Origin: a virus
Lineage: Duplodnaviria; Heunggongvirae; Uroviricota; Caudoviricetes
Length of the DNA: 7,708 bases
Virus record (IMG/VR): IMGVR_UViG_2663763413_000006
Reading direction: 5' to 3' (one strand)
Under the pieces are notes generated by a model. It was not told the origin of the DNA. It saw only the letters and a program-made list of their open reading frames with translations, and did not search any database. The translations under genes and the position numbers were made by a program. Positions 1 to 7,708 of this stretch are shown in pieces. Each line of letters begins with the position of its first letter. Within the stretch, counting starts at the first letter, position 1.

Positions 1-296
1 GGGCCGGTAAAACCGGACTGATACAGCCACTTATCCGCAGCGTGCTGGACTCCGGGGGCTTTGCCGTGGTGTTCGACATGGGGGATGGCTACAAGTCCCT
101 GTGTGAGAACATGGGGGGCGTATATCTGGACGGTGAAACCCTGCGTTTTAACCCGTTTGCGAACATCACCGATATCGACCAGTCAGCGGAGCGTGTCCGT
201 GACCAGTTGTCAGTGATGGCCAGCCCCAACGGTAACCTGGATGAAGTGCATGAAGGTCTGCTGCTGCAGGCGGTCAGGGCCTCCTGGCTGGCCTGA
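1..296 (+). pseudogene. traC: Internal fragment of F-type conjugative transfer ATPase TraC (VirB4-family T4SS ATPase); 5' end outside window, stop TGA at 294-296
   Basis: Frame starting at nt 3 is open from the window edge and reads AGKTGLIQPLIRSVLDSGGFAVVFDMGDGYKSLCENMGGVYLDGETLRFNPFANITDIDQSAERVRDQLSVMASPNGNLDEVHEGLLLQAVRASWLA. The leading AGKT is the tail of a Walker A P-loop. The string matches my recollection of F-plasmid TraC, which continues past ...RASWLA; here a TGA follows immediately. Recognition is from memory, not a search. Confidence 0.7.
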
Positions 297-647
297 TCCT
301 TAACTGATCGGCATTACAGCCAGATGCTGGGCTTTATTGCCGAAAACTATGATCAGGCGCTGACCATCAACGATGTGGCTGAGCACGTCAAACTTAACGC
401 CAACTATGCAATGGGGATATTCCAGCGGGTCATGCAATTGACGATGAAACAGTACATTACCGCGATGCGCATCAACCACGTTCGCGCGTTACTGAGCGAT
501 ACCGATAAAAGTATTCTCGATATTGCCCTGACGGCAGGCTTTCGTTCGAGTAGCCGTTTTTACAGCACGTTCGGCAAATATGTCGGCATGTCGCCGCAAC
601 AATACCGCAAACTTAGCCAACAGCGCCGCCAGACGTTTCCCGGCTAA
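297..647 (+). pseudogene. melR: 3' portion of an AraC/XylS-family regulator (MelR-like C-terminal HTH DNA-binding domain); 5' part of the gene absent
   Basis: Same frame as the traC fragment. Translation SLTDRHYSQMLGFIAENYDQALTINDVAEHVKLNANYAMGIFQRVMQLTMKQYITAMRINHVRALLSDTDKSILDIALTAGFRSSSRFYSTFGKYVGMSPQQYRKLSQQRRQTFPG is a typical AraC-family tandem-HTH C-terminus. Position directly upstream of adiA matches the E. coli melR-adiA-adiY-adiC arrangement. Only about 115 codons are present, so the gene is 5'-truncated. Confidence 0.6.
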
Positions 648-3518: not shown

Positions 3519-4443
3519 ATGAGGATTTGCAGCGACCAACCTTGTATTGTTTTATTGACTGAAAAAGATGTCTGGATAAGGGTGAATGGGAAAGAACCTA
3601 TTAGCCTTAAAGCTAACCACATGGCGTTATTAAATTGTGAAAATAATATTATCGACGTCTCCTCTCTTAATAACACTTTGGTTGCTCATATTAGTCACGA
3701 CATCATCAAAGATTACCTCCGGTTTCTGAATAAAGATCTCTCGCAAATACCAGTATGGCAACGTAGCGCTACGCCCATCCTCACCCTTCCATGCCTGACG
3801 CCAGACGTCTTTCGCGTTGCCGCGCAGCATAGCATGATGCCCGCTGAAACTGAGTCAGAAAAGGAACGAACACGTGCATTATTATTCACTGTGCTATCCC
3901 GTTTTCTCGACAGTAAAAAATTCCTTTCACTAATGATGTATATGTTTCACTAATGATGTATATGTTACGTAATTGTGTAAGTGACAGCGTTTATCAAATT
4001 GTGTAAGTGACAGCGTTTATCAAATTATTGAAAGCGAAATCCACAAAGACTGGAATCTTAGTATGCCAGCAAGAGACTGGAATCTTAGTATGGTAGCCAG
4101 TTTGGAATCTTAGTATGGTAGCCAGTTGATGATGTCTCAGCCCAAGTCTGTTAAAGAAAAAGCTGAAAAGCGAAAACACCAGTTATAGCCAAATAATCAC
4201 CACCTGCCGCATGCGTTATGCCGTAAATGAATTAATGATGGACGGTAAAAATATTTAATAATGGACGGTAAAAATATCTCTCAGGTACGCTAAAAATATC
4301 TCACAGGTATCACAGTCCTGCGGCTACAACAGTACGTCGTACTTTATTTCTGTCCTTAAAGACTTATACGGTATGACGCCGCTGCATAAGGTATGACGCC
4401 GCTGCATTATGTTAGTCAGCACAGAGAACGCACTGTCGCCTGA
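3519..4443 (+). pseudogene. adiY: AraC-family activator AdiY, disrupted by multiple short tandem duplications and in-frame stops
   Basis: ORF 3519-3953 reads MRICSDQPCIVLLTEKDVWIRVNGKEPISLKANHMALLNCENNIIDVSSLNN..., matching recalled E. coli AdiY, then terminates early at TAA 3951-3953 inside a duplicated segment. Downstream sequence still encodes AdiY-like peptides in shifting frames (e.g. [56 protein letters not shown]) up to the native-looking stop TGA 4441-4443. Good RBS aggag 8 nt upstream of the ATG. Confidence 0.8.
3925..4409 (+). repeat. Cluster of short direct tandem duplications inside adiY
   Basis: Read directly: tttcactaatgatgtatatg x2 (3925-3944, 3945-3964); attgtgtaagtgacagcgtttatcaa x2 (3972-3997, 3998-4023); gactggaatcttagtatg(gtagccagtt) in three overlapping copies (4048-4065, 4075-4102, 4103-4127); atggacggtaaaaatat x2 (4238-4254, 4261-4277) with a third partial copy near 4291-4310; ggtatgacgccgctgcat x2 (4370-4387, 4390-4407). 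Confidence 0.85.
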
Positions 4444-4579: not shown

Positions 4580-5163
<584 letters not shown>

Positions 5164-5164
5164 T

Positions 5165-5242
<78 letters not shown>

Positions 5243-5251
5243 TTGCAGATA

Positions 5252-5641
5252 TTACTCTTTTTTCTCCGTATCTGCATCGGGTTCATCAGCAAATAGCTTG
5301 CCCTGCATCCGATCCAGTTCTTCTTTTCTTACCCGCTTAACCACGCTGTAGACCCACTGAAGCGAAACACCAAATTTGCGGGCCAGTTCGTGGTGGTTGC
5401 GTCCGTTAAACTCCCTGAAGATTTCCCGGTCGCGCTGACTGACCTTCCATACCATGCCCATCGGGAAATAAACGTTTTGCCCGCCCCAGACCTGCATCAT
5501 TCGGTTCGCGACGGCCTGACCAATCTGGTCGGCAACTTCGGGCTCAATATCAATAATCTCGCGAACGGTCTCAGAGGTATGCTGTGCCAGTTCCACCAGG
5601 AGTTCCGGCCCCTTACTTCGAAACTGATTCAGGTCGCTCAT
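5252..5641 (-). CDS. mor: Mor-like middle-operon transcriptional activator (Mu gp17 family)
   Basis: 129 aa. C-terminal region ...GGQNVYFPMGMVWKVSQRDREIFREFNGRNHHELARKFGVSLQWVYSVVKRVRK resembles the conserved Mor/C-family HTH region of phage Mu Mor as I recall it (...FNGRN..EL...YG......VY...RR.R). Start overlaps the upstream gemA-like gene by 29 nt. Confidence 0.7.
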   Translation of the reverse strand: MSDLNQFRSKGPELLVELAQHTSETVREIIDIEPEVADQIGQAVANRMMQVWGGQNVYFPMGMVWKVSQRDREIFREFNGRNHHELARKFGVSLQWVYSVVKRVRKEELDRMQGKLFADEPDADTEKKE

Positions 5642-6062
5642 GTTTGACTCCCGCAGCTCTGCGCTGCCACTTCTTCAGTTTCTCAATAACACTGCTTGCC
5701 TGTTCAGTACTGAGCCAGCGCAGGGCGCTGATGCCCGTTTCCCGCTTGATCCACCTCGCTAATGCATTTTCTGAACGGTCACGAACAATGCCGGCAGCAG
5801 CCATTTCAAGCCATAGCGCACGAATTTTCCTGGACTGCGGATGGTTATCAAGCGGTAAACCGGAGCTGGCTTTTCTGGCTGGTTTAACGCGAAAGCCTTT
5901 CTTTTTCATGGATTCCAGCACGCAGTTTAGTTGTGTGGTATCCATTCCTTTGGTTGAGGCTTTACCGGTCAGCCCCTGTAACATCTGGCGGTAGGTGTCT
6001 TCATCCATACCCAGTTCATTACGGGCAATATGGATAAGCTGTATCAGGCGTTTTTTCTGCAT
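5613..6062 (-). CDS. gemA: GemA-like protein (Mu gp16 / DUF1018 family)
   Basis: 149 aa, MQKKRLIQLIHIARNELGMDEDTYRQMLQGLTGKASTKGMDTTQLNCVLESMKKKGFR...KIRALWLEMAAAG... matches the GemA family pattern recalled from Mu-like prophage annotations. Lies immediately upstream of mor as in phage Mu. RBS ggag upstream of ATG at 6062. Confidence 0.65.
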   Translation of the reverse strand: MQKKRLIQLIHIARNELGMDEDTYRQMLQGLTGKASTKGMDTTQLNCVLESMKKKGFRVKPARKASSGLPLDNHPQSRKIRALWLEMAAAGIVRDRSENALARWIKRETGISALRWLSTEQASSVIEKLKKWQRRAAGVKHERPESVSK

Positions 6063-6063
6063 A

Positions 6064-6270
6064 TCATCTCCTTTTTTTCAGTCTGTCGGCAACAATGTCG
6101 GTTGCAGCTGGCAGGGTGACTGGCCAGAACAACATGACGGCGGTCATGTACAGGATGTAATGCGCGGTGTCGTAGTGCCTGCCATAGCCCAGGGAACGAT
6201 GAAGTCTTGCGCTGCATGATCCTGCGTACATATACCAGAAAAGAAAACAGACAATGGTTTCAGTAGTCAT
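6064..6270 (-). CDS. Small hydrophobic (putative membrane) protein, 68 aa, unknown function
   Basis: Internal start of the 6064-6426 ORF: ATG at 6270-6268 preceded by ggagg about 10 nt upstream. MTTETIVCFLFWYMYAGSCSARLHRSLGYGRHYDTAHYILYMTAVMLFWPVTLPAATDIVADRLKKRR has two hydrophobic segments. Start overlaps the stop of the upstream gene; the stop is 1 nt from the gemA start. Confidence 0.4.
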   Translation of the reverse strand: MTTETIVCFLFWYMYAGSCSARLHRSLGYGRHYDTAHYILYMTAVMLFWPVTLPAATDIVADRLKKRR

Positions 6271-6490
6271 TCTGAATACCTCCCCATTCGATATGAATAT
6301 TACGGGCAGCAATGACAGGGTCGTTATTCCACCATGCACCTGACATGTATTTTTCAACCTGTTCGCGTCCGGCAATAACACCAATTGTGATCCCCGGCCT
6401 GACGTTCTTAAAAAAGGCGCGGGCAAAAAGGTATCTGGCAGATATTCGGCAGGCTTTTAATTTCCGGCTTTTACCTGATAGCGTAATCAT
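6260..6490 (-). CDS. Hypothetical phage protein, 76 aa
   Basis: ORF with ATG overlapping the TGA of the upstream DUF2786-like gene (ATGA at 6487-6490, minus strand), consistent with translational coupling in a phage operon. No family recognised. Confidence 0.4.
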   Translation of the reverse strand: MITLSGKSRKLKACRISARYLFARAFFKNVRPGITIGVIAGREQVEKYMSGAWWNNDPVIAARNIHIEWGGIQNDY

Positions 6491-7170
6491 CTGGCCTCCA
6501 GTTTCTGTTGTTCCTGCCCACTGACCGGGCGGTGCAGTCTGACGTTCTGCCCTTCACGAAACCCCGCATAGCGCGAGGCGTCGCCATTGCGGCTTCTTCC
6601 CGGTTTACGCGCCCTGGTGGTTTGCGTCTGCGGGTATTTATGTTCCAGCCACTGCTGCATCAGTTCACGCTCATCATCGGTCAGGGCAAAGGACTGTATT
6701 TCACTGATAACGGCCAGCACCCAGCCTTCGGCAAACTGGTCTCCACGGCTGGTGCGGGTGGCGGTTTTTATTCTTTTGTTCTGTGCACTGATATACTGCT
6801 GACGCGCCTTTTTCAGCTGACGGGCCAGCACTTCCCAGGTGTATGCAGCCAGTGCCGCACGTTCCCGGTTGCCGTAGAACCCCACAGACGGATGCGTGCC
6901 GGGGTGAATGATGGAGTTAACACCAAATACCTCGCGGATGATGTTCATCAGGCCCAGCATGTAGCGCGGTGGACGGAGACTGCCTGTCGGCCAGTAGTGA
7001 CTGATGGTTTCATCAATATCACTCATAGCAATGTCGGAATGTGTGATGCCGTGAACATCCATCAGTTTACGGGCTCGGCGCAGTGCCAGAGCGGCCTCGT
7101 GCGGGTTGCCGGATGCGGCCAGCGCCAGCAACTTTTTCAGTTTCTCAATGTGTTTATTCTGGTCTGTCAT
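6487..7170 (-). CDS. DUF2786-like phage protein (227 aa from ATG 7170; the six-frame ORF extends to 7206)
   Basis: N-terminus MTDQNKHIEKLKKLLALAASGNPHEAALALRRARKLMDVHG resembles the DUF2786 signature (EKI.KLLALA.S.N..EA..A...A..LM) common in prophage early regions. The ATG at 7170 overlaps the TGA of the upstream gene (ATGA) and has ggag about 11 nt upstream, so I prefer it over the 7206 start. Confidence 0.55.
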   Translation of the reverse strand: MTDQNKHIEKLKKLLALAASGNPHEAALALRRARKLMDVHGITHSDIAMSDIDETISHYWPTGSLRPPRYMLGLMNIIREVFGVNSIIHPGTHPSVGFYGNRERAALAAYTWEVLARQLKKARQQYISAQNKRIKTATRTSRGDQFAEGWVLAVISEIQSFALTDDERELMQQWLEHKYPQTQTTRARKPGRSRNGDASRYAGFREGQNVRLHRPVSGQEQQKLEAR

Positions 7171-7382
7171 TGTTCTGTATCTCCGGTATTTTTCTGCCGT
7201 TTCCATGCCCGGACAGCGTCGGACAGCTCTTTCAGGCTGTATGCTGCTTTAAGCTTTTCCCATAACCACTGTGTTGTTATGTGCATCAGCAGGGCAGCCA
7301 GGGCTGCCCCCGCACTGAGGCATGTCGCCAGGCCAGTAAGAATCAGTGTCCATGCGGTGATTTCCCTGAGTATGTCAGCCAT
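7167..7382 (-). CDS. Small putative membrane protein, 71 aa, unknown function
   Basis: MADILREITAWTLILTGLATCLSAGAALAALLMHITTQWLWEKLKAAYSLKELSDAVRAWKRQKNTGDTEQ has one clear hydrophobic helix. RBS gggagg 8 nt upstream of the ATG; stop overlaps the start of the downstream gene. Confidence 0.4.
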   Translation of the reverse strand: MADILREITAWTLILTGLATCLSAGAALAALLMHITTQWLWEKLKAAYSLKELSDAVRAWKRQKNTGDTEQ

Positions 7383-7396
7383 TGAATGCCTCCCGG

Positions 7397-7693
7397 TTAC
7401 TCGTTCGTGTAAATCACGCCCAGTCGTGCAGCCAGACGTTCCAGTTTTTTCTGTTTGTGGAAGTCAATCAGCCGGTCCATCCCCTGAAGGCGCAGTTGCT
7501 CTGTCATGATTTCCACGTCTGCCAGCTCTGCCGCGAGGTCACTTTCGCTGCCCTGTCCGTTCAGGTTGCGGGCGGCACTGGCCGCCAGTTCAGCGGCCTC
7601 TTCTGCCAGTTTCAGGGCCTGTGCGTCCGGCCCGAAACGCTGCAGGGCCAGACGGTAGAGGGCGGTGCGGGTGAGTTCGGTGTTTCGTGTCAT
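7397..7693 (-). CDS. Small MazG-like all-alpha nucleotide pyrophosphohydrolase-type protein, 98 aa (motif-based call)
   Basis: Contains E31-x3-E35 (LAEEAAELAAS), then 20 residues later E56-x2-D59 (AAELADVEIM), matching the MazG/HisE-type metal-binding signature E-x3-E ... E-x2-D. RBS gaggg upstream of ATG at 7693. Inferred from motif only. Confidence 0.5.
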   Translation of the reverse strand: MTRNTELTRTALYRLALQRFGPDAQALKLAEEAAELAASAARNLNGQGSESDLAAELADVEIMTEQLRLQGMDRLIDFHKQKKLERLAARLGVIYTNE

Positions 7694-7708
7694 GCCGCGC
7701 CCTCAGTG

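What the first reader, a model, noticed from the sequence alone, without database searches (positions are those of the whole stretch)
5252..7708. Mu-like early-operon module that stops right after mor, with no C gene or late genes
Gene order on the minus strand (MazG-like, membrane protein, DUF2786, 76-aa protein, membrane protein, GemA-like, Mor-like) with ATGA stop-start overlaps mirrors the semi-essential early region of Mu-like phages, where gemA and mor precede the Mor-activated middle promoter and gene C. Here mor is followed by only about 160 bp and then truncated adiC. This is either a prophage remnant deleted from the mor side or an artificial joint. The rest of the early region (gam, kil, B, A, ner, c) would be expected to the right of the window.
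Basis: partly seen in the sequence, partly recalled or inferred. Interest (0 to 1): 0.5.

Follow-up and report, generated by a model that had tools for sequence, protein, structure and literature searches.

The report
Natural end of BcepMu-like prophage
The gene block is the intact left arm of a common, already described BcepMu-type transposable prophage of E. coli, in which the Mor regulator gene is normally the last gene before the phage end, so nothing has been deleted after it.

Summary
Seven tightly packed minus-strand ORFs (5252-7693) end with GemA and a Mor/C-family activator, 163 bp from a junction with a truncated adiC.

The interpretation (deleted remnant or artificial joint) is not supported. 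Window 5089-7708 is 100% identical to phage PhiKM (genus Bcepmuvirus) and to a prophage found in at least 576 of 5,426 complete E. coli genomes. In eight independent host contexts the identity starts at exactly the same base, TG at window 5089. That base is therefore the natural transposon-type terminus.

In the type phage BcepMu, gene 1 is the Mor/C homologue and gene 2 is gemA. Both are transcribed towards the left end, as here. The late genes lie on the other arm, beyond a central repressor region, and there is no separate C gene.

Two complete relatives show TG...CA ends, 6-bp target duplications and matching terminal motifs.

The contig itself is a poor draft. It has a traC-melR chimeric joint and stutter errors in adiA and adiY. 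Whether the adiC insertion is fixed in the strain therefore cannot be decided.

Verdict: an ordinary, already known element. Interest is low.

The parts
4580..5088 (+). 5' fragment of host adiC (arginine/agmatine antiporter), cut by the phage end. 5064-5085 is garbled relative to native adiC. 5083-5088 (CGTATT) is the predicted 6-bp target site.
   Evidence: 98.5% identity to the E. coli adi locus. Alignment to strain D8 shows native sequence up to 5059 and again at 5082-5089. The TSD length is inferred from two complete relatives.
5089..5251 (.). Phage left-end (attL-type) region. It holds the terminal TG at 5089-5090 and two copies of a terminal motif: TGAGATAAATG at 5099-5109 and TGAGATATTTA at 5122-5132, spaced 23 bp apart. 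These are presumed transposase-binding sites.
   Evidence: Identity among eight independent host contexts begins exactly at 5089. The same motif positions (about 11-21 and 34-44 from the tip) occur at the other end of the prophage and at the BcepMu left end.
5199..5244 (-). Strong hairpin just after the mor stop, followed by UUUUCAC. It is a candidate terminator of the early operon, placed before the phage end.
   Evidence: MFE -29.2 kcal/mol, z=-4.17, 0 of 200 shuffles fold as well; inverted repeat I1. The Klebsiella relative KP12 has a different GC hairpin plus TTTTCATATACTGTAA at the same place. The simple terminator scan did not flag it because the loop is 14 nt.
5252..5641 (-). Mor/C-family transcription activator. 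It is the last gene of the early operon and the orthologue of BcepMu gp01.
   Evidence: PF08765 E=1.3e-43. 54% identity to BcepMu gp01. 30% to Mu Mor and 37% to Mu C with equal bit scores.
5613..6062 (-). GemA (Mu gp16) homologue, the orthologue of BcepMu gp02.
   Evidence: PF06252 E=8.3e-41. 44% identity to BcepMu gp02 and 36% to Mu GemA.
6064..6270 (-). 68-aa small hydrophobic protein of unknown function.
   Evidence: phrog_6436 E=2.2e-45; annotated CDS in relatives.
6260..6490 (-). 76-aa protein of unknown function.
   Evidence: phrog_3681 E=6.5e-55.
6487..7170 (-). DUF2786/DUF7168 protein (227 aa).
   Evidence: Pfam hits; phrog_421 E=4.7e-77.
7167..7382 (-). 71-aa protein with one predicted transmembrane segment.
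   Evidence: phrog_3958 E=1.1e-41; hydropathy maximum 1.98.
7397..7693 (-). 98-aa MazG-like NTP pyrophosphohydrolase family protein.
   Evidence: phrog_2245 E=5.5e-34; RefSeq name for WP_001295929.1; no Pfam hit at E<=0.01.

Best explanation
Window 5089-7708 is the undamaged left arm of a BcepMu-type (Bcepmuvirus) transposable prophage. This phage is common in E. coli and is sequence-identical to phage PhiKM. In this phage type the early operon starts at a central repressor/operator region and is transcribed leftward. It runs through small HTH regulators, an rve-type DDE transposase, an AAA+ target-DNA ATPase, Gam, a string of small accessory genes (among them the NTP-pyrophosphohydrolase-like and DUF2786 proteins seen here), GemA and finally the Mor/C-family activator. 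It ends at a hairpin about 10 bp after mor. The last 163 bp carry the transposase-binding repeats and the terminal TG. Lysis, head and tail genes lie on the other arm and are transcribed the other way. There is only one Mor/C-family gene. This activator therefore most likely works in trans, directly on the late promoters more than 8 kb away, without the Mor-to-C relay of Mu. The phage end abuts adiC because the phage transposed into adiC; the other half of adiC should follow the far end of the roughly 37-kb prophage after a 6-bp duplication. Shown: the gene families, the exact terminus, the architecture and target duplications in complete relatives, and the orthology to BcepMu gp01/gp02. Inferred: the transcription pattern, the terminator, the transposase-binding role of the end motifs, and direct Mor control of late promoters.
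For: 100% identity of 5088/5089-7708 to PhiKM (taxonomy Bcepmuvirus) and to prophages in at least 576 complete E. coli genomes. Eight different flanks (adiC, ycaL, ydaT-side, ylbE, yibQ, an integrase, a DUF2207 gene, and the PhiKM flank) all switch to identical sequence at TGATTAGACTTGAG. The complete 37,061-bp prophage in strain 4/1-1 reads invertase-tail-head-lysis | HTH repressor region | early operon ending GemA-Mor | end. The far end is TGATGCGCC...; both ends share TGAT, then GATAAATG at position 14, and a second motif copy 23 bp further in. The duplications are 6 bp: GAAGAA in 4/1-1 and CCAGTT in TUM14759. In BcepMu, gp01 is Mor/C at 365-736 and gp02 is GemA, both on the bottom strand next to the left end, and the left end has the same two-motif geometry. 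The published description places genes 1-13 on the bottom strand and 17-52 on the top strand, with a Tn552/IS1604-type transposase and terminal CA dinucleotides (PMC2771037). Protein identities to BcepMu are 54% (Mor), 44% (GemA) and 68% (transposase). PhiKM has only one Mor/C homologue. For late promoters, the 8-mer TTAAWATC occurs only four times in PhiKM. All four are in the late sense, in the intergenic regions before the holin, head, tail and baseplate genes, and each is followed after exactly 19 nt by a -10-like nAnnCT. The motif is kept at three equivalent sites in the Klebsiella relative KP12 although the spacers diverge. Related elements sit before the BcepMu holin, head and baseplate genes.
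Against: Only one end of the insertion is in the window, so the target duplication and the second half of adiC cannot be checked. The 20 nt of adiC just before the junction are garbled. The contig has another clearly chimeric joint (traC to mid-melR at 294-316) and several stutter duplications. No complete E. coli genome has a prophage at this adiC site. The late-promoter motif was found by eye in regions chosen beforehand, its raw count (4 against about 2 expected for the 8-mer) is modest, and no binding by Mor has been shown.
Confidence: 0.9

Rival explanations
1. Prophage remnant: a Mu-like prophage that lost its middle operon (C) and late genes through a deletion that ended just after mor.
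For: In Mu itself mor is followed by Pm, gp18-20, C and the late genes. None of these follow mor here.
Against: The breakpoint coincides to the base with the terminus used in seven other independent contexts. The terminal TG and both end motifs are intact. BcepMu has the same mor-at-the-end layout. Complete 37-kb relatives carry all late genes on the other arm.
Confidence: 0.02
2. Assembly artefact: the adiC-phage joint is a chimeric join made by the assembler or by a chimeric read, like the traC-melR joint at the other end of the contig. The real prophage would then sit elsewhere in the genome.
For: The contig is a 7.7-kb draft fragment. It has a 23-nt filler between an internal traC fragment and mid-melR. 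It has stutter duplications and error-rich patches in adiA, adiY and adiC, one of them 4 nt from the junction. The exact fusion ORF is found in no other assembly, although that ORF includes the garbled residues.
Against: A random chimeric joint would hit the exact terminal base of a 37-kb element with a probability of about 1 in 37,000. About 7-8 native adiC bases lie between the garbled patch and the phage TG, with no filler.
Confidence: 0.05
3. The junction is real but not fixed. It would come from a replicative-transposition product or from host DNA packaged on a virion end, in a subpopulation of an induced culture or in a low-level contaminant strain, captured at very low coverage.
For: Transposable phages insert at many sites during lytic growth and package host DNA at both ends (PMC2771037 and PMC5977238 abstracts). 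The host part of the contig looks like roughly 1x coverage, with errors and stutters, while the phage part is error-free.
Against: About 4.8 kb of contiguous host sequence is attached, more than one would expect on a virion end. There are no depth data. The same facts fit a fixed insertion in a poorly covered genome.
Confidence: 0.3

Closest known systems
Burkholderia phage BcepMu (AY539836; genus Bcepmuvirus; Summer et al. 2004, as cited in PMC2771037)
   Same: Gene 1 is Mor/C and gene 2 is GemA, on the bottom strand next to the left end. The early and late clusters diverge from a central lysogeny region. It has an rve (Tn552/IS1604-type) transposase, an ExeA-like ATPase, a P2-like tail and TG...CA ends with two end motifs 23 bp apart. 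Protein identities to the E. coli phage are 54% (Mor), 44% (GemA) and 68% (transposase).
   Different: The accessory genes between the ATPase and GemA differ: BcepMu has SSB and HU genes there, while the E. coli phage has Gam, the NTP-PPase-like gene, the DUF2786 gene and small membrane proteins. BcepMu has 364 bp after gene 1 against 163 bp here. The E. coli phage has a Gin-like invertase and an invertible tail-fibre segment at the far end; BcepMu is stated to lack one and carries an acyltransferase gene there.
Escherichia phage PhiKM (PQ738613) and the prophage of ST131-type and other E. coli, for example next to ycaL in strain 4/1-1
   Same: 100% nucleotide identity over window 5088/5089-7708, with the same gene order.
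   Different: Only the insertion site differs (adiC here). The PhiKM record is a permuted, partial assembly, and it labels the Mor homologue 'protein C'.
Escherichia phage Mu (AF083977) early region: gemA, mor, Pm, C
   Same: It has GemA and Mor/C-family homologues, with gemA immediately before mor and overlapping it. It has Gam and replicates by transposition. Mor is the last product of the early transcript.
   Different: Identity is only 30-37%. In Mu the early operon runs towards the genome centre, so mor is followed by Pm, C and the late genes. Mu uses the MuA transposase (its record lists Mu-specific InterPro domains) and, from textbook knowledge, makes 5-bp duplications. Here the transposase matches only the rve integrase core, the duplication is 6 bp, and there is a single Mor/C paralogue.

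Membership tests
BcepMu-like transposable phages (Bcepmuvirus) | The Mor/C homologue is the terminal gene at the left end, preceded by gemA, and both are transcribed towards the end. | tested here: met
   Window 5252-5641 and 5613-6062, minus strand, 163 bp from the terminus. BcepMu gp01 and gp02 have the same layout.
BcepMu-like transposable phages (Bcepmuvirus) | Sequence relatedness to BcepMu proteins. | tested here: met
   Mor 54% (E=4e-50) and GemA 44% (E=3e-37). The 100%-identical phage PhiKM is classified as Bcepmuvirus.
BcepMu-like transposable phages (Bcepmuvirus) | A Tn552/IS1604-type rve transposase rather than MuA. | tested here: met
   The gene is not inside the window. In the 100%-identical prophage of strain 4/1-1 the transposase hits Pfam rve only and is 68% identical to BcepMu gp09.
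BcepMu-like transposable phages (Bcepmuvirus) | Transposon-type TG...CA termini with repeated end motifs. | tested here: met
   TG at 5089; CA at the same end read on the other strand and TG at the far end; two motif copies 23 bp apart at both ends and in BcepMu.
BcepMu-like transposable phages (Bcepmuvirus) | Insertion at many unrelated sites with a short target duplication. | tested here: inconclusive
   Relatives show at least six different host sites and 6-bp duplications at two of them. For this window only one junction is available.
BcepMu-like transposable phages (Bcepmuvirus) | Late genes (lysis, Mu-like head, P2-like tail) on the opposite strand, beyond a central lysogeny region. | tested here: met
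   Seen in complete relatives and in the published description (PMC2771037). This region lies outside the window.
Muvirus (phage Mu proper) | mor is followed by the Mor-dependent middle promoter, gene C and the late genes. | tested here: not met
   Only 163 non-coding bp follow mor, and then the terminus. PhiKM has a single Mor/C paralogue.
Muvirus (phage Mu proper) | Close protein similarity to Mu and a MuA-type transposase. | tested here: not met
   30-37% identity to Mu Mor, C and GemA. The transposase of the relatives matches only Pfam rve.
Mor/C transcription activator family (PF08765) | Full-length match above the gathering score, including the C-terminal HTH. | tested here: met
   147.8 bits against a cut-off of 24.9, model positions 1-107 of 107; weak HTH_23 and HTH_29 hits at residues 80-110.
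Mor/C transcription activator family (PF08765) | Binds upstream of activator-dependent promoters and turns them on. | not testable with these tools
   There are only candidate sites: TTAAWATC-N19-(-10) before four late gene blocks of PhiKM, conserved in KP12.
GemA (PF06252) | Full-length match above the gathering score. | tested here: met
   140.1 bits against a cut-off of 27, model positions 1-119 of 119.

The most novel reading that the evidence does not exclude
BcepMu-type phages may run a shortened regulatory cascade. Their single Mor/C-family protein, made last from the early operon at the very edge of the genome, would directly switch on four late promoters on the other arm through a conserved element. 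That element is roughly TWAA-N5/6-TTAAWAKC, placed 19 nt upstream of a -10-like hexamer. It is shared by E. coli, Klebsiella and Burkholderia members, and I found no description of it in the searchable literature. A second, weaker possibility is that the adiC insertion is real and abolishes arginine-dependent acid resistance in this strain.
Probability: 0.45. Interest if true: 0.3.

Novelty: already known. Interest (0 to 1): 0.1.

Why it matters
It matters little beyond correct annotation. The apparent truncation after mor is the normal architecture of a known phage genus, and this exact sequence is present in about a tenth of complete E. coli genomes. Two points are useful. First, annotators should not use Mu gene order to judge whether BcepMu-type prophages are complete. 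Second, this contig's adiA, adiY and adiC 'pseudogenes' and its traC-melR joint are most likely assembly errors and should not be read as biology. If the adiC insertion is genuine, the strain would lack the arginine/agmatine antiporter of acid-resistance system 3.

Tried and rejected
- Local BLAST of the window against the native adi locus failed because several fetched loci were never copied to the script machine (L015 likewise). I used DNA alignment instead.
- Pfam gave nothing for the four small ORFs or for the NTP-PPase-like ORF. PHROGs resolved them.
- The simple terminator scan found nothing after mor. Folding showed a long hairpin with a 14-nt loop, which is outside that scan's criteria.
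- A first extended late-promoter pattern had the wrong gap length and found none of the four PhiKM sites and only one of the three KP12 sites, the one before holin.
- A literature search for the assembly accession found nothing. The strain is therefore unnamed here.
- Looking up the truncated AdiC fusion ORF returned only this contig. This is uninformative, because the ORF contains the garbled residues.
- I considered and rejected that the protein can be called specifically 'Mor' or specifically 'C'. It scores equally against both Mu proteins.
- I did not use the large protein-database, structure-prediction or metagenome scans. The nucleotide-identical relatives already answered the question.
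Full report
**What the window is**

The window is the complete 7,708-bp contig AOQJ01000101.1 of NCBI assembly GCA_000397385.1. It has three parts:
- Positions 1-293 are 100% identical to an internal piece of the F-type plasmid gene traC.
- Positions 317 to about 5088 are the E. coli chromosomal melR'-adiA-adiY-adiC' region, at 98.5% identity.
- Positions 5089-7708 are phage DNA.

**Checking the observation**

They are tightly packed. Two junctions are true ATGA overlaps (7170/7167 and 6490/6487). The others are an 11-nt overlap, a 1-nt gap, a 29-nt overlap (GemA/Mor) and a 14-nt gap.

Pfam results:
- 5252-5641 is a Mor-family protein (E=1.3e-43, whole model).
- 5613-6062 is GemA (E=8.3e-41).
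- 6487-7170 carries DUF2786 and DUF7168.

The 98-aa ORF at 7397-7693 has no Pfam hit. It matches a PHROG of NTP pyrophosphohydrolases at 5.5e-34, and RefSeq names the identical protein that way. All seven ORFs belong to phage protein families at E<=1e-34, so these are real genes and not chance ORFs.

mor stops at 5252. The 163 bp down to 5089 contain no frame on the mor strand that could hide a C-like gene.

**What the element is**

Window 5088/5089-7708 is 100% identical to Escherichia phage PhiKM, which GenBank classifies in the genus Bcepmuvirus. It is also 100% identical to prophages in hundreds of complete E. coli genomes. In all, 576 of 5,426 genomes carry at least 80% of the segment, almost always on the chromosome.

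The decisive point is where the identity starts. I aligned the window junction with seven other contexts: next to ycaL, next to a ydaT-family gene, next to ylbE, next to yibQ, inside an integrase gene, inside a DUF2207 gene, and in the PhiKM record. All eight sequences are unrelated up to one base and identical from TGATTAGACTTGAGATAAATG onward. That base is window 5089. It is therefore the natural terminus of a mobile element that inserts at many sites, not a deletion end point.

**Architecture in complete relatives**

In strain 4/1-1 the prophage is 37,061 bp long and lies between aroA and ycaL. Its order is:
- a Gin-like invertase and tail-fibre genes;
- P2-like tail genes;
- Mu-like head genes;
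- a lysis cassette, all of the above on one strand;
- a central region with an HTH repressor;
- on the other strand, small DNA-binding proteins, an rve-type DDE transposase, an AAA+ (ExeA-like) ATPase, Gam, several small ORFs, the NTP-PPase-like gene, the 71-aa gene, the DUF2786 gene, the 76-aa and 68-aa genes, GemA and Mor;
- then the end.

So mor is normally the last gene before the terminus. The late genes are on the far arm.

**The ends**

The far end reads TGATGCGCCGCGCGATAAATG... when read inward. The mor end reads TGATTAGACTTGAGATAAATG... Both begin with TGAT, both have GATAAATG at positions 14-21, and both have a second related copy 23 bp further in. In the window these copies are at 5099-5109 and 5122-5132.

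Two complete insertions show 6-bp target duplications: GAAGAA in 4/1-1 and CCAGTT in TUM14759. By analogy, the target in the window would be CGTATT (5083-5088).

**Comparison with the type phage**

The BcepMu record (AY539836) annotates gp01 (365-736, bottom strand) as the Mor/C-family regulator and gp02 as GemA. They are followed by an ExeA-like ATPase gene (gp08) and a Tn552/IS1604-type rve transposase gene (gp09), all transcribed towards the left end. The window proteins are 54% and 44% identical to gp01 and gp02. The relatives' transposase is 68% identical to gp09.

The BcepMu left end, TGAAGAGAGGTGAGATATTTCC...GCGCGATATTTCC, has the same two motifs at the same distances from the tip. [quoted passage not shown] It places the lysogeny control region between them, followed by lysis, head and P2-like tail genes. 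It also states that the ends carry CA dinucleotides and that the transposase is unrelated to MuA (PMC2771037).

Against Mu itself the window proteins are only 30% (Mor), 37% (C, over a shorter stretch, with the same bit score) and 36% (GemA) identical. In Mu, mor is followed by Pm, three small genes, C and the late genes.

The element is therefore a member of the BcepMu group and not a Mu-type prophage that lost its right-hand part.

**How it most likely works**

Shown: the gene families, the terminus and the layout.

Inferred from the layout and from what is established for Mu:
- The early transcript starts at the central operator and ends after mor.
- A strong hairpin at 5199-5244, followed by UUUUCAC, sits about 10 nt after the mor stop (-29.2 kcal/mol, z=-4.2). 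The Klebsiella relative KP12 has a different GC-rich hairpin followed by TTTTCATATACTGTAA at the same place. This fits a terminator that keeps early transcription from running out of the phage end.
- The last 163 bp would bind the transposase.

PhiKM has only one Mor/C-family gene. The activator must therefore act in trans on the other arm.

I looked at the intergenic regions ahead of the late gene blocks in PhiKM. The 8-mer TTAAWATC occurs just four times in the whole genome on both strands. All four are in the late sense, before the holin, head, tail and baseplate genes. Each is followed after exactly 19 nt by a -10-like nAnnCT. Three of these sites are kept in KP12 although the spacer sequences diverge. 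BcepMu has related elements before its holin, head and baseplate genes: TAAAGCCGATTAAAAGACC twice and GGCTTTAATATCC once.

These are good candidates for Mor-dependent late promoters, which would make this a one-step cascade instead of Mu's Mor-to-C relay. The motif was found by eye, and no binding has been shown, so this part is a hypothesis.

**Is the adiC joint real?**

The contig is of poor quality:
- A 23-nt filler (294-316) joins internal traC to the middle of melR.
- Compared with native E. coli, adiA has error-rich insertions at about 1583-1661 and 1903-1981.
- adiY has back-to-back stutter duplications at about 3947-3996, 4051-4102, 4246-4290 and 4370-4389.
- adiC is garbled at 5064-5085.

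The phage part has no errors at all. No complete E. coli genome has a prophage at this adiC site.

Even so, the joint falls on the exact terminal base of a 37-kb element, and 7-8 native adiC bases lie directly against the phage TG. A random chimera would do that about once in 37,000 tries. I therefore take the junction as a genuine transposition junction. I cannot say whether it is fixed in the strain or comes from a minority product or a low-coverage contaminant. The reciprocal junction and the read depth would settle that.

**Verdict**

The 'Mu-like early module' reading is right in kind, but the 'remnant or artificial joint' reading is not supported. The element is already known: the sequence is identical to a named phage and to hundreds of prophages, and the architecture was described for BcepMu in 2004. 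Interest is low. The only mildly new items are side observations: 6-bp duplications, shared end-motif geometry, a candidate late-promoter element, and the assembly artefacts in the host part of the contig.

Noticed in passing
window 1-316: Positions 1-293 are 100% identical to an internal fragment of the F-type plasmid gene traC. A 23-nt stretch (294-316) matches neither partner, and then the sequence continues in the middle of chromosomal melR. There is no mobile-element end here, so this looks like a chimeric assembly joint.
   Followed up: partly
window about 1583-1661, 1903-1981, 3947-3996, 4051-4102, 4246-4290, 4370-4389 and 5064-5085: Relative to native E. coli, the adiA, adiY and adiC sequence carries error-rich inserts and back-to-back imperfect duplications of 20-50 bp. 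These break adiA into three ORFs and truncate adiY. The phage part is error-free. They are most likely low-coverage assembly artefacts and not real pseudogenes.
   Followed up: partly
L001 (PhiKM) 4476, 10393, 16658, 31683; L013 (KP12) 24018, 10714, 4898; L015 (BcepMu) 11495, 18822, 30784: A conserved element, TTAAWATC (TTAAAAGA in two of the BcepMu sites), lies before the holin, head, tail and baseplate gene blocks. In PhiKM and KP12 it is preceded about 10 nt upstream by TWAA and followed after 19 nt by a -10-like hexamer. These are candidate activator-dependent late promoters of Bcepmuviruses.
   Followed up: partly
L005 4286 and 41346; L011 1331; L007 302: This E. coli BcepMu-type prophage makes 6-bp target duplications (GAAGAA, CCAGTT), not the 5 bp of Mu. 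Both of its ends carry two copies of a GAGATAWWT/GCGATAAATG motif 23 bp apart, as does the BcepMu left end.
   Followed up: yes
L005 41327-41346 (strain 4/1-1, and many strains with the ycaL-side insertion): The prophage sits in the first codons of ycaL. The annotated ycaL CDS starts 20 nt inside the phage end, so YcaL would have a phage-derived N-terminus, or would no longer be expressed from its own signals.
   Followed up: no
L013 (OM835952.1, 'Klebsiella phage KP12 clone KP12_2'): The record is filed under Vequintavirinae, but this 34.9-kb clone is a BcepMu-type prophage-like genome with invertase, P2-like tail, rve transposase, GemA and Mor. It has one extra gene (34523-34852) between mor and the end, and its Mor homologue is labelled 'rdgB'.
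   Followed up: no
window 5171-5198, minus strand: A weak sigma-70-like promoter match (TTCACA-16-CATATT) lies just downstream of the hairpin and points out of the phage end into adiC (antisense). The number of such matches in the region is no greater than in shuffles.
   Followed up: no
L001 20165-20554 (PhiKM annotation): The PhiKM record calls the Mor/C homologue 'positive regulator of late transcription protein C'. It also calls a 345-bp ORF just outside the phage end an 'Fe2+ ABC transporter permease'. The record is a permuted partial assembly that joins the two phage ends through flanking DNA.
   Followed up: no
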